In this document: positions 24,834-57,243 of the stretch, piece by piece
Layout of the letters: each line of letters begins with the position of its first letter
Numbering within the stretch: the stretch's first letter is position 1
NCBI GenBank assembly: GCA_964016885.1
Contig: OZ024746.1
Span: 81,406,001-81,470,000, forward strand
Source of the DNA: Eledone cirrhosa
Lineage: Eukaryota
Direction: 5' to 3'
Length of the DNA stretch: 64,000 nucleotides
The notes under the pieces: generated by a model
What the model was told of the DNA's origin: nothing
Database searches by the model: none
The model's input: the letters and a program-made list of their open reading frames with translations, nothing else
Made by a program: the position numbers and the translations under genes

Positions 24834-25192
24834 TATTGTTATACTTGGGGAGGGTCATACTGTTGTAATAATATTGCCAGAATTAATAACAGAACACACT
24901 CACTGTTTGGTTGGTTTTCGCTTCTGTATCTTTTATATCAGTTAATTTATTCGGTCCTCAATGTTTACCATTGACTGACCAACGGTCAAAAATACAGATA
25001 TAATATAGACACAAACACATATATTTAGTCTAACAAAGTTCTTTCGTTGCACATCTACAACATCGTCAGTGGTACTATTATGTTTCCTCCTGCTGTATTG
25101 TATGTCTACGCCATCTTATTAATTCTGGCAATATTATTACAACAATATGGCCCTCCCCAAGTTTAACAATATTTGTTTCGACACACGAGTTT
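24834..25192 (-). mobile_element. Family G1 hammerhead element with terminal inversion
   Basis: IR 24834-24889 / 25116-25171; minus-strand CTGACGA-T-GTTGTA gatg TGCAAC-GAAA at 25031-25074 (stem I weak); homologous to 51904. Confidence 0.7.
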
Positions 25193-27734
25193 ATGTATAT
25201 ATATATATATATGTATATATATGTATATATATATATATATATATATATATGTATATATATATATATATATGTATATATATGTATATATATGTATATATAT
25301 ATATATGTATATATATATATATGTATATATATATATGTATATATATGTATATATATGTATATATATATATATGTATATATATATATATATGTATATATAT
25401 ATATGTATATATATGTATATATATATATATATATATGTATATATATATATATAAATATATATATGTATATATATATATATATATATATATATATGTATGT
25501 ATATATATATATATATATATATATGTATATATATATGTATATATATATATATATATATATATATATATATATGTATGTATATATATATGTATATATATAT
25601 ATATATATGTATATATATATATATATATGTATGTATATATATATATATATGTATGTATATATATATATATATGTATATATATATGTATATATATATATAT
25701 GTATGTATATATATATGTATATATATATGTATGTATATATATATGTATATATATATATGTGTATGTATATATATATGTATATATATATATATGTGTATGT
25801 ATATATATATGTATATATATATATGTATGTATATATATATGTATATATATATGTATATATATGTATATATATATATATATGTATATATATATATATATGT
25901 ATATATATATATATATATATATGTATATATATATATATATATATATATATATATATATGTATATATATATATAATTATAATGAAATGACAGGAGGCTGGA
26001 TTTCATTATAATATTTCATTATAATATTTAACTCCGTAATAGCACCACCAACTACAAAAACAAAGACGGTTGAACTGCTTTACGTTGAGTACTCTCTATA
26101 TTATTGCATTACGATTGACCATACGGAATAGACCAGCTCTATACAGTGGTGAACCTCAAACCTGAATATATATATATATATATATATATATATATATGTA
26201 TATATATATATATATATGTATATATATATATATATATATATATATATATATATATATATATGTATATATATATATATATATGTATATATATATATATATA
26301 TATGTATATATATATATATATATATATATATGTATATATATATATATATATATGTATATATATATATATATATATATATATATATATATATATATATATA
26401 TATATATATATATATATATATATATATATATATATATGTATATATATATATATATATATGTATATATGTATATATATATATATATATATATATATATGTG
26501 TGTATATATATATATATATATATATATGTATATATATATATATATATATATATATATATATATATATGTATATATATATATATATGTATATATGTATATA
26601 TATATATATATATATATATATGTACATATATATATATGTGTATATATATATATATATATATATATATATATATATATATATATATATATATATGTATATA
26701 TATATATATATATATATATATATATATATGTATATATATATATGTATATATATATATGTATATATATATATGTATATATATATATATATGTATATATATA
26801 TATATATATATATATATATATATATATATGTATATATATATATATATATGTATATATATATATATATATATATGTATATATATATATATATGTATATATA
26901 TATATATATATATATGTATATATATATATATATATGTATATATATATATATATATATATATGTATATATATATATATATATATGTATACATATATATATA
27001 TATATGTATATATATATATATATATATATATGTATATATATATATATATATATATATGTATATATATATATATATATATATATATATATATATGTATATA
27101 TATATATATATATATGTATATATATATATATATATATATATGTATATATATATATATATATATATATGTATATATATATATATATATATATATATATATA
27201 TATGTATATATATATATATATATATGTATATATATATATATATATATATATGTATATATATGTATATATATATATATATATGTATATATATATATATATA
27301 TGTATATATATGTATATATATATATATATGTGTATATATATATATATGTATATATATATATATGTATATATATATATATGTATGTATATATATATATGTA
27401 TATATGTATGTATGTATATATATATATATGTATATATGTATGTATATATATATGTATGTATATATGTATATATGTATGTATATATATATATATATGTATG
27501 TATATATATATATATATATATATATATATATATATATATATATGTGTGTGTGTGTGTGTATATATATGTATATATATATATATATATATATATATATTTA
27601 TATATATATGTGTGTGTGTGTATATATATGTATATATATATATATATATATATATATATATATATATATATTTATATATATATATATATGTGTGTGTGTA
27701 TATATTTTTATATATATATATATATATATATATA
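25193..27734. repeat. Two very long (TA)n/(TATG) arrays separated by a ~190-bp unique island (25973-26165)
   Basis: direct reading. Confidence 0.95.
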
Positions 27735-27925
27735 ACGAAGGAAGTGTGGTAAGGAACCAGGTGGACCATAACGCACCAGAGTACTCGATACTATGGGTGA
27801 TAGATTGGGTAATAGGAAAAGAGTCAGGACCCCGATGGCTGTGAGCTCCGGCCGTTTCGACAGCTATTCAGAAATAGCTGTTGAAACGGGCAAAGCTCAG
27901 TCGTCGGGGTTCTGACTTTTTCCTA
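27735..27925 (-). mobile_element. Family E foldback element
   Basis: reverse-complement homolog of 11900-12100. Confidence 0.8.
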
Positions 27926-29339
27926 TATATATATAGTAGTAGTAGTAGTAGTAGTAGTAGTAGTAGTAGTACAGATTTAAGTTTAGCGTCCAATCAGAAA
28001 TTCTAAACTTTTAAATTTTAATCTGTACAAATAATAAATATTTGCTCTACATGTTTATATATACTTTTATATATATACAATCCTTTGTATTTATTTTTAA
28101 CATATACATACAGGGTGTCCCCCAAAAATGTATACACACTATAATTAGAATGCTATTGAAGTGTCAATACATTTTTGTGGACACCCTTTACCCTCTTTTA
28201 CCTGTTCCCGCCATCCGACTGAGGCCATATATATATTTAGAGAGAGAGAATGAGAGAGAGAGAGAGGGGGTGGAGAGGGCGTGTAATGATGTGTTCAGCC
28301 TAGAGTGAAATGCAAAGCAGTAAAAAAACACTCAATACCATGGTGGAATAAAATGATATTTATTCAAATCTCAATCAGCGTTTTATGTTAACCGATACTC
28401 ACGTGACTGTATACATCATGGTCGAATAATTCAGACGTTCAATTCGCACTCATTAAGTCCCGAGTTCGATTCTACTGCGTAGTATCTTGGGTTAGTGTCA
28501 TGTACCATAGCTTCGAGCTAATCAAAGCCTGTGAGAGAAATTGGGTAGACGAAAACTGTTTGGAAGCCGCTGGATAAACTGCACCTATAATTCAAAGGGC
28601 GGGACTTATACACAGAGTCACATTGAATCTCTTTGAATAGTTTGTTAAGCGTACATCTGCATATGGAAGGCTCAGTCACCTACACGTTAATTTTACGAGC
28701 CACTGGAACAATTACTGTCGAAACCGACGGCGGTTTATTCCATATGTATGTGCGTGTGCGTGTATTCTTTTGCTGATTTGAATCATTAAATTGTGACAAT
28801 GCTCTCGAGGGATTTCGTTGATTATATCGATCTTAGTACCTTTTTTCAAGTTTGTCTAACCGCTATATTATTTTAACTGCAACCACAAGACATTTGTTGT
28901 TATGTTCTCTTCCAGGAAAGCATATTATTCAAAGTGAGAGTTACTTTGGTTATCTATTTTTCTCACAACATAGCGATGTTAAATTTTCTCATGATATGCA
29001 GAAAGCCTTTTGTCTAATGTTCTGTTGCACTATAGCTATGCACCTACTTTAGGTATGTGTTTCTGGTCATCAAACAGAGATTATTTTCTGGTGGGCGTTT
29101 TTTAAATTCTTGTGATGCTATTTACCTCATGTACGTAGAATTGATCGATGGACGCACTTCGATATTCGGTTATTGGTGGATGTAATCGAATTGATATAAT
29201 GCGACATTCCACGTTAAGTTTATGTATTCTTTTCTTTTTACACAAAAGCAGCCAATATCACTAATAGTTTACAAGTTGTTGTTGTTTTTTTTTGTTGGGG
29301 GGGGGGGGGTTGTTAATAATTTTCGTGATGTAACATTAT

Positions 29340-29710
29340 TGATCACGGGATTCCTCCGAAGGGTCTTTGGAGTAACGTTACTCGATAAAATTGTAGCTTG
29401 AAGATCAGTGAGTCACTCCAGCTTGAGCCGTTACTTCTTCGAATTGAGAGATCACGGCTCCGATACTATGGTCATGAGGTTAGAATATCTCAGGAAAGAA
29501 TCGCTGGACGGATTTTACGGGCAAACCCAACAGCTAGGAGACCCGGGGGTAGACATGATGGTTGGATAAAATCTATAAGCTTGGCTGGTCACGCTTGGGG
29601 ATCCAACCGGATCTTGGAGACGGTTGCTTCTGACAGGACCCACTGGAGGGAGTGTTTGAGGACTCTGCACCTACGACCCTCTCAGGAATAAATGGGCTAA
29701 GAAGAAGACC
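29340..29710 (+). mobile_element. RTE LINE 3' fragment
   Basis: ISESLQLEPLLLRIERSRLRYYGH...DRTHWRECL. Confidence 0.85.
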
Positions 29711-55634: not shown

Positions 55635-55958
55635 CAAATATTAACAAAATAGATATTCTTGTGATCAATTAAATTTTATTATACATATTTCAGAGATTAA
55701 GATTTAATCTTAACCATCTACCATGTCAGGGTATGTCATGTATCATTTTATTTTATCTGATGAGGACGTACTGTTGAACTTAATTCAGTACCTCTGAAAT
55801 ATGTATAATAAAATTTAATTGATCACAAGAATATCTATTTTGTTAATATTTGTATTTTAATATTAATAACTCTGGAAAATATCCTCTGTAGAGTGCTTCC
55901 AATCTACTGTAAAACTCATTTTTTGATGTACTCATTGAATCTTGTTTAACTCTTTAAT
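55635..55958 (+). mobile_element. Family A foldback element with hammerhead (55751-55813)
   Basis: IR 55635-55695 / 55792-55852; TTTTAT-CTGATGA-stem II-GAAA-TATGTA-TA-ATAAAA; tail. Confidence 0.8.
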
Positions 55959-56224
55959 ATATGTGTGTGTGTGTGTGTGTGTGTGTGTGTGTGTGTGTGT
56001 GTGTGTGTGTGTGTGTGTGTGTGTGTGTGTGTGTGTGTGTCTGTGTGTGTGTGCGTGTGTGTGTGTGTGTGTGTGGTTGTGTGTGTGTGTGACTGACAAG
56101 CAACACTATTAACAACTAAAACACTGAATTCTGGTGTCAATGAAAACACCAAACAGAACGCTTTAATTAGATTGTCAGCGTCCGTGTGACAGACGGACAG
56201 CGAGGGTAGGTCTCATTATAATAT

Positions 56225-56408
56225 GGATTGGCAGTATCGATAGAGGGTCGGACACCATGCTTTCCACCATAGTTACGTCCCTTTATGGTCTGAGCTCAAA
56301 TCCCGCTGAGGTTAACTTTGCCTTTCATCCTTACGGGGTCGATAAAATAAAGTACCAGTAATGCACTGAGTAATTGCTGGCCTTGTGCCAAAAAGTAGAA
56401 ACAACTAT
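56225..56408 (+). mobile_element. S1 SINE
   Basis: core motif. Confidence 0.85.
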
Positions 56409-56728
56409 AATATAGCTTTAATGAAAATATTAGAAATGTTTTCGCCGTTAACACTGAACAAATTATATCTAATTGCATTCTTTAAAAAAATACATCCATT
56501 CAAAGGTGACTTTTGCGTCACTCTTTCTTTTATCTCACTTCTTTCTACTACAATGTGTTGTCTTTATTTCTTTTGTGCAACCCCTAGCCTCACTCATCAC
56601 ACCTGTTCACCATTCAACTTCTGGTTAAAAACAAAGAAAAGAATACCCGTCTTTTGTTCACGGAAAGATTAGTAGCTTATAGTTATTTATAATGTATATA
56701 TATATATATATATATATATATATATACA

Positions 56729-57243
56729 TATTGTTATACTTTGGGAGGGTCATGTTGCCAATAAGAAACACACGCACCAGTTGCTTTCACTTCAATTTAT
56801 TATAATAAATTTATAAATTTAGGAATTTATAAATTTCCGGTTGGTTGGTTGGTTCCACTACCAGATGGTTGTTTATATATTGTCAAAGTTCTTTCGTCAC
56901 ACATTCCTACGCCATCTTGTTTCTCAGAGAAACAATATGGCGTAGGACAGAACAAAGGAGAGGCACAAAAACAAAGAAAAGAATTCCCAGTCACTGAAGA
57001 GGTCACAGAATGTGTGACGAAAGAACTTTGACAATATATAAACAACCATCTGGTAGTGGAACCAACCAACCAACCGGAAATTTATAAATTCCTAAATTTA
57101 TAAATTTATTATAATAAATTGAAGTGAAAGCAACTGGTGCGTGTGTTTCTTATTGGCAACATGACCCTCCCAAAGTATAACAATATCGGTTTCAACACAC
57201 GTTTTCAGATAAAGAATCTTATTAAACAAATTCAGAAACAAAA
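56729..57243 (+). mobile_element. Family G2 foldback element with hammerhead (56990-57032)
   Basis: 178-bp IR 56729-56906 / 57008-57185; GTCA-CTGAAGA-G-GTCACA gaatg TGTGAC-GAAA-GAAC-TT-TGAC; tail 57186-57243. Confidence 0.85.

What the first reader, a model, noticed from the sequence alone, without database searches (positions are those of the whole stretch)
24834..57243. Family G looks like a complete ~280-340 nt non-autonomous element starting at an AAGATGGCG motif
Both G1 copies (24834-25117, 51904-52187) stop at the same point, reading AA(G/A)ATGGCGTAG on the ribozyme strand. The diverged G2 copy also begins at this motif (hairpin 56905-56947). All share the terminus TTGTTATACTT(G/T)GGGAGGGTCAT, also seen at ~44385 and partly at ~60590. 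Random 5' truncation would not give a common start. AAGATGGCG is the YY1-binding motif often found at transcription starts (established). Inference: a SINE-like Penelope parasite made of an internal promoter motif, a hammerhead and a pLTR end.
Basis: partly seen in the sequence, partly recalled or inferred. Interest (0 to 1): 0.75.

Follow-up and report, generated by a model that had tools for sequence, protein, structure and literature searches.

The report
Penelope ends stopping at transcription start
These repeats are not a separate mini-parasite but cut-short end pieces of two very abundant, self-copying Penelope-like jumping genes; a minority of copies stop at one spot, often with an extra G, which likely marks where the element's capped RNA begins.

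Summary
The sequences are real, but 'complete ~280-340 nt non-autonomous element' is refuted. G1 and G2 are the pseudo-LTR ends of two autonomous endonuclease-bearing Penelope-like families (ORF about 1,200 aa, RT plus GIY-YIG; over 36,900 exact termini genome-wide). The shared 'terminus' is the reverse complement of the ORF's first codons (MTLPKYNN). In samples anchored on the terminus, only 16-21 of 96 (G1a), 4 of 80 (G1b) and 11 of 83 (G2) copies end near AAGATGGCG; the rest are shorter or run on, many into the ORF. Short copies form no lineage of their own. The two G1 window copies end 7-11 nt apart, not at one point. What survives: copy ends do pile up at the motif (G2: 188 versus 17 and 6 in control windows), often with an untemplated G (9 of 50 versus 0 of 29), between an upstream TGCGCATG palindrome and the YY1-like word. 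This likely marks the capped transcription start; reverse transcription runs through the predicted hammerhead. No RNA data were available. The scan found this before on other DNA of this genome (e1-9926904, e1-10315897).

The parts
24834..25117 (-). G1a pseudo-LTR piece (5' UTR plus first 8 codons), 5' end at the first A of AAGATGGCG, 1 nt short of the inferred G1 start; 3' end in (TA)n
25109..25117 (-). YY1-like word AAGATGGCG (binding not tested)
   Evidence: motif as given in PMC5381506
25028..25078 (-). predicted minimal type I hammerhead: CUGACGA 25069-25063, GAAA 25045-25042, predicted cut between 25036 and 25035
24834..24858 (-). shared 'terminus' = ATG and codons MTLPKYNN of the element ORF
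25116..25192 (+). inverted 56-nt partner fragment plus part of the 'tail' (next codons of the ORF), then (TA)n
51904..52198 (-). G1b pseudo-LTR piece, 5' end at +11..+15 past the motif, closed by a hairpin 52182-52208; hammerhead core 52141-52108
56927..57185 (+). G2 pseudo-LTR piece; begins with an extra G (56927) in front of the commonest inferred start (56928); hammerhead 56990-57032; ATG at 57161
57186..57240 (+). G2 'tail' of about 57 nt = next ORF codons
56729..56925 (-). inverted G2 partner arm: 178 nt of the 3' end, a jump, then 19 nt at the motif ending in an extra C
44383..44418 (-). 36-nt G2 3'-end fragment between (TA)n runs
60587..60603 (+). 17-nt G2 3'-end fragment before (TA)n

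Best explanation
G1 and G2 are 5'-truncated pseudo-LTR copies of two autonomous endonuclease-bearing Penelope-like retrotransposon families, and a minority of copies end in a narrow zone at the AAGATGGCG word that likely marks the capped start of the element's RNA. Shown: the terminus is the start of a ~1,200-codon RT-GIY-YIG ORF, copies sit in (TA)n, often as inverted pairs, with an optional 46-59 nt tail, and their 5' ends range from under 50 nt to over 2 kb. [quoted passage not shown] The RT would prime at the (TA)n nick and start copying at two sites just inside the ORF, as shown in vitro for the anole element PAc. If it starts at the site near the 5' end of the RNA, it would run off the cap after about 260-290 nt and add a C opposite the cap; if it starts at the repeat of that site in a read-through tandem RNA, it gives the longer copies. 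Start-limited copies lack the upstream palindrome and are likely by-products, not a self-propagating family.
For: ORFs of 1,055-1,304 aa next to the repeat; in L127 pLTR-ORF-pLTR with the frame opening at the ATG inside the terminus; G2 has its own ORF, 66% identical to G1's, Pfam GIY-YIG above cut-off, RVT_1 E 5e-5 below cut-off. End distributions: G1a 56 short / 16 zone / 24 beyond of 96 by script (21 in the zone by inspection), hazard ratio 3.2, p 2e-4, 0 of 300 scan simulations; G2 26 / 11 / 46 of 83, ratio 2.6, p 0.011. Genome-wide G2 junctions into (TA)n in 13-nt windows, forward strand: 188 at the motif, 17 at the hammerhead, 6 beyond the palindrome (one subfamily), 15 at the predicted cut; G1 58, 30, 6. 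Untemplated C on the cDNA strand: G2 9 of 50 sites versus 0 of 29 (p 0.012), at CA dinucleotides +10, +14, +16; G1 spike at +5 (8 of 17 rows). Palindrome kept in 68 of 78 continuing copies of both families. Short and long copies intermingle in trees.
Against: G1b shows no excess in the terminus-anchored sample (4 of 80). The G2 excess in that sample does not survive a scan correction (56 of 300). Over all sampled junctions an extra C is no more common in the zone (4 of 20) than outside (36 of 147). With both G2 controls pooled (2 of 41) the C excess is p 0.053; the G1 control also holds a few extra-C junctions. Ends are spread over about 30 nt. A- and T-rich tracts beside the motif offer microhomology to (TA)n. 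Factor binding, the start site and ribozyme cleavage are untested.
Confidence: 0.72

Rival explanations
1. Same identity (truncated pseudo-LTRs of autonomous elements), but the pile-up is mechanical: RT slips or stalls on the A-rich tract next to the motif and the T-rich cDNA end anneals to the (TA)n target; no transcription start is involved.
For: T-run stutters are common at these junctions; a TTATA stretch elsewhere in G1 also attracts ends (30 junctions); no pile-up in G1b; whole-sample cap test negative.
Against: G1 and G2 have different neighbouring tracts (TTTA versus TG) yet both pile up at the motif; the extra C sits at discrete pyrimidine-A positions and is absent from 29 control junctions.
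Confidence: 0.2
2. One reading: a self-contained SINE-like parasite of 280-340 nt with an internal promoter, mobilised in trans and amplifying from its own copies.
For: Excess of ends at the motif; a G1a variant with a short UTR deletion has 0 of 25 copies past the stop codon (only 7 reach the motif); non-autonomous PLE derivatives are known (PMC8557442 passage; bioRxiv 10.64898/2026.07.22.740005).
Against: Only 5-22% of copies end in the zone; 14 of 96, 37 of 80 and 38 of 83 run into the ORF; no clustering of short copies in trees (9 changes versus 9.6 shuffled; 10 versus 9.2); no single 5' end; the 'terminus' is coding sequence.
Confidence: 0.05
3. Retrozyme-like unit whose ends are set by hammerhead self-cleavage or a circular RNA.
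For: Hammerhead core conserved with compensating stem II changes between G1 and G2; one five-copy tandem array with a 313-319 nt period.
Against: No pile-up at the predicted cut (15 versus 188, a weak AT-rich pattern); thousands of copies read through it (6,172 exact for one variant); the array unit contains an internal inversion.
Confidence: 0.03

Closest known systems
Neptune/Nematis clades of C-terminal EN+ Penelope-like elements (Craig et al. 2021, PMC8557442; passages and supplement rows read)
   Same: [quoted passage not shown]
   Different: Tail is 46-59 nt rather than 30-40; Asn-rich insert before the RT; these families were not found in that paper's supplement (0 hits for MTLPKY). Neptune versus Nematis not resolved.
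Penelope of Drosophila virilis (Schostak et al. 2008, PMC2377424; abstract and discussion read)
   Same: Promoter and start site in the pseudo-LTR, made of the upstream copy's 3' UTR.
   Different: Start mapped experimentally there; here inferred from copy ends; Penelope lacks the linker finger; an intron is not shown here.
PAc Poseidon element of the anole (Frangieh et al. 2024, PMC11167929; parts 1-2 of 4 read)
   Same: Copy 3' ends lie inside the start of the ORF at two sites that bound the tail; uncut RNA is the template.
   Different: In PAc the hammerhead overlaps the start codon; here it lies 130-180 nt upstream.
Mammalian L1 5' end (PMC5381506 and PMC2912911; passages read)
   Same: CAAGATGGC word within about 20 nt downstream of heterogeneous starts; extra G from a copied cap.
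   Different: L1 carries its promoter inside the transcript; here a second conserved word lies upstream of the inferred start and is lost from start-limited copies.
Animal non-LTR retrozymes (Li, Clavereau, Pollet 2026, 10.64898/2026.07.22.740005; part 1 of 5 read)
   Same: Type I hammerhead in a pLTR-derived sequence.
   Different: Retrozymes are tandem non-coding units; these are dispersed, variable-length ends of ORF-bearing elements.

Membership tests
EN+ Penelope-like element | single ORF with RT and C-terminal GIY-YIG | tested here: met
   (G2 EN above Pfam cut-off; G1 EN gave no Pfam hit but is 66% identical overall)
EN+ Penelope-like element | pseudo-LTRs from partial tandems, inverted truncated copies, optional tail | tested here: met
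   L127, L260 tandems; inverted partner in 35 of 96, 21 of 80, 38 of 83; tails
EN+ Penelope-like element | RT groups with PLE RTs in a phylogeny | not tested
Neptune/Nematis clades | CX2-5CxxC linker finger and CCHH motif | tested here: met
   read from the translations against the definition; excludes Penelope/Poseidon, Hydra and Naiad by motif and domain order
Neptune versus Nematis | clade placement by RT tree | not tested
   no references
SINE-like non-autonomous element | fixed 5' end shared by most copies | tested here: not met
SINE-like non-autonomous element | own lineage, separate from the ORF-bearing partner | tested here: not met
   (28 and 43 rows; weak resolution)
SINE-like non-autonomous element | internal promoter active in the short copy | not testable with these tools
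   no RNA holder listed
minimal type I hammerhead of PLEs | CUGANGA, stem II with unpaired 5' base, GAAA, 1-2 bp stem III, NUH, stem I | tested here: met
   against the description in PMC4209133; no Rfam hit
minimal type I hammerhead of PLEs | self-cleavage | not testable with these tools
   needs an in vitro assay
non-LTR retrozyme | tandem non-coding units each with a hammerhead | tested here: not met
   one array among the first 100 G1a termini

The most novel reading that the evidence does not exclude
These Penelope-like elements use a split host-style promoter, an NRF1-like palindrome upstream and a YY1-like word just downstream of the cap site, so that a copy made from the 5' end of the RNA loses half its promoter; this would explain why active Penelope-like elements need the partial-tandem pseudo-LTR, and would make the genome a fossil CAGE map of their start sites.
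Probability: 0.3. Interest if true: 0.6.

Novelty: new member of a known kind. Interest (0 to 1): 0.33.

Why it matters
As proposed (a new SINE-like Penelope parasite) it is not real. The remainder is useful to specialists: the promoter of only one Penelope element has been dissected in the papers read here, and copy ends with an extra G give single-base candidates for the start in two Neptune/Nematis-type families, show that the RT copies through the hammerhead, and give a testable reason for the tandem structure. It also warns that top-hit alignments of pLTR pieces can mimic a complete short element.

Tried and rejected
Rfam at gathering and E-value thresholds found no hammerhead; the core was found by pattern. 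The repeat finder was swamped by (TA)n. The first hammerhead scan missed the G cores because of the unpaired base before stem II. No RNA holder listed, so no reads were laid; this says nothing about expression. Whole-ORF Pfam scan gave nothing useful; PDB search gave only weak RT and I-TevI-like hits. Best-hit samples are biased toward copies covering the query and were used only to find longer copies. over-extends G1a ends into (TA)n, under-extends one (L158): hence 16-21 of 96. The whole-sample cap test was negative (only 3 G2 templates there; repeated with 33, zone C 3 of 13). The 34 C versus 2 G is partly expected from the make-up of (TA)n flanks and is not used alone. RNA cofold did not give the dimeric helix III. 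A search of earlier findings by sequence gave nothing. Literature searches for YY1 or NRF1 with Penelope and for untemplated G with pLTR listed no paper on this; the library lacks most subscription journals and Repbase was not searched.
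Full report
Observation. The two G1 pieces start at 24834 and 51904 and are 85% identical; the terminus occurs at 24836, 44385, 51906, 56731 and, inverted, 57183, 25169 (two changes) and 60603 (part). Positions below are counted from the end of CTACGCCA on the strand shown in the window, so +4 is the first A of AAGATGGCG on the sense strand. Copy 1 stops at +4 and joins an inverted 56-nt piece of its own 3' end. Copy 2 follows the family sequence to +11..+15 and ends in a hairpin. 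G2 is a head-to-head pair whose right arm starts at +10. So the three long pieces end within 11 nt of each other, not at one base, and four other termini in the window belong to pieces of 17 to 178 nt.

What the repeat is. The own genome (3.0 Gb) holds 3,197, 8,387 and 25,352 exact matches to the G1a, G1b and G2 termini. Of the 30 best G1 loci, most continue past the motif into shared sequence, from a few bases to over 1,500. Extending them gives an RT frame, and a protein search finds open frames up to 1,304 aa. L127 is pLTR-ORF-pLTR; its frame opens at the ATG inside the 'terminus' and runs 1,205 codons to a stop about 195 nt before the motif of the next repeat. G2 has its own tandem element (L260), 66% identical in protein, with a Pfam GIY-YIG domain above cut-off. 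[quoted passage not shown] The closest named homologue is an Octopus vulgaris protein at 68%. Termini meet (TA)n directly or through a tail of 46-59 nt that is the next stretch of the ORF, as for PAc, where RT starts at two sites inside the ORF (PMC11167929, parts 1-2 of 4).

Where copies end. I took the first listed termini in genome order: 96 G1a (100 listed, 4 tandem duplicates dropped, plus one stray hit dropped), 80 G1b and 83 G2. Short of the motif zone / in it (-11..+33) / beyond: G1a 56 / 16 / 24, G1b 29 / 4 / 47, G2 26 / 11 / 46; past the stop codon 14, 37 and 38. The script pushes some G1a ends into flanking (TA)n; by inspection the zone holds 21. The chance of ending per base is 3.2 times higher in the zone than before it for G1a (p 2e-4; 0 of 300 scan simulations), 2.6 times for G2 (p 0.011; 56 of 300 after scan correction) and equal for G1b. 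Anchored on the motif instead, about 17 (G1) and 20 (G2) of the first 100 rows end within 30 nt (hand count). In trees of 28 G1a and 43 G2 copies, zone-ending copies are scattered among long ones (9 changes versus 9.6 shuffled; 10 versus 9.2, weakly resolved). The SINE-like reading fails on fixed ends and on lineage.

The pile-up is real. Counting forward-strand junctions into (TA)n within 13-nt windows across the genome gives, for G2, 188 at the motif, 17 at the hammerhead and 6 beyond the palindrome (one subfamily); for G1, 58, 30 and 6 (the 30 sit at a TTATA stretch and include a tandem set). An untemplated C on the cDNA strand, that is a G in front of the sense copy, occurs at 9 of the first 50 distinct G2 sites against 0 of 29 at the hammerhead control (p 0.012) and 2 of 12 at the upstream control (pooled p 0.053) (hand counts, tested). 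These C's sit at +10, +14 and +16, each an A preceded by C on the sense strand; in G1 they sit at +5 (8 of 17 rows). The window's G2 arm begins with such a G at 56927. Against this, a test over all junction types in the samples showed no excess (4 of 20 versus 36 of 147), and G1b shows no pile-up. An extra G is the known trace of a copied cap in L1 and SVA (PMC2912911, passages). A TGCGCATG palindrome lies 24-75 nt further upstream in 68 of 78 continuing copies of all three groups, though the UTRs hardly align. Its likeness to the NRF1 site is recalled, not from a call. In human promoters NRF1 sites lie upstream and YY1 sites just downstream of the start (PMC11269187, passages), and mammalian L1s begin with CAAGATGGC (PMC5381506, passages). 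D. virilis Penelope is transcribed from its pseudo-LTR (PMC2377424, abstract and discussion). The cap reading and the Schostak paper came to me through earlier finding e1-9926904; I had the pile-up and the start-site idea before and ran the site-specific tests afterwards.

Hammerhead. All three long window copies have CUGANGA, an unpaired base, a 6-bp stem II with two compensating changes between G1 and G2, GAAA, a one-pair stem III and an NUH triplet, matching the minimal hammerheads of PLEs, which cut poorly as monomers (PMC4209133, passages). Ends do not gather at the predicted cut (15 versus 188, weak pattern) and 6,172 exact copies of one variant span it, so the copied RNA is likely uncut, as reported for PAc.

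Mechanism. Shown: identity, ORF start in the terminus, tails, (TA)n targets, end distribution, extra G at discrete sites. Inferred: start site, factor binding, priming at the 5' copy of the initiation site giving start-limited copies, and long copies from read-through tandem RNA. No RNA run was listed.

Novelty. A new member of a known kind. Searches for YY1 or NRF1 with Penelope, and for an untemplated G with pLTR, listed no paper on this point, and these families were not in the Craig et al. supplement; Repbase and most subscription journals were not searched, and bioRxiv supplements are closed. The scan has already noted the same start-site signature in this genome, which is not independent support. 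Interest 0.33.

Noticed in passing
window 179, 55757, 63827 (+), 63303 (-), about 57279 (+), about 43980-44050: Other hammerhead-like cores in unrelated repeats beside (TA)n, probably ends of other Penelope-like families.
   Followed up: no
window 32561-32631 (+): Weak Rfam tRNA match, 31.8 bits; may be the head of a tRNA-derived SINE.
   Followed up: no
L127 ORF residues about 245-405; L260:2439-3992 (-): Both families carry an Asn-rich stretch before the RT, like the N-rich inserts of Adineta vaga Penelope elements (PMC3846280 passages) but at a different position.
   Followed up: partly
window about 24900 (-) and 57138-57144 (+): A splice-donor-like word (GTGAGTGTGTT in G1, GTGCGTGTGTT in G2) is conserved 25-45 nt before the ATG in otherwise unalignable UTR; D. 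virilis Penelope has a 5' UTR intron.
   Followed up: no
L088-L092 (G000:C1:34853598-34854884): Five-copy tandem array, period 313-319 nt, of a G1a piece with an internal inversion.
   Followed up: partly
G1a sample: A variant with a short UTR deletion has 0 of 25 copies past the stop codon (longest 469 nt) against 9 of 30 without it; could be a UTR-only sub-lineage or chance.
   Followed up: partly
window 56906; L040, L042, L043: Several G2 inverted arms break 178 nt from the terminus, in the loop of hammerhead stem II.
   Followed up: no
Tail lengths are discrete: mostly 46 nt in G1a, 58 (also 43-45) in G1b, 57-59 in G2.
   Followed up: partly
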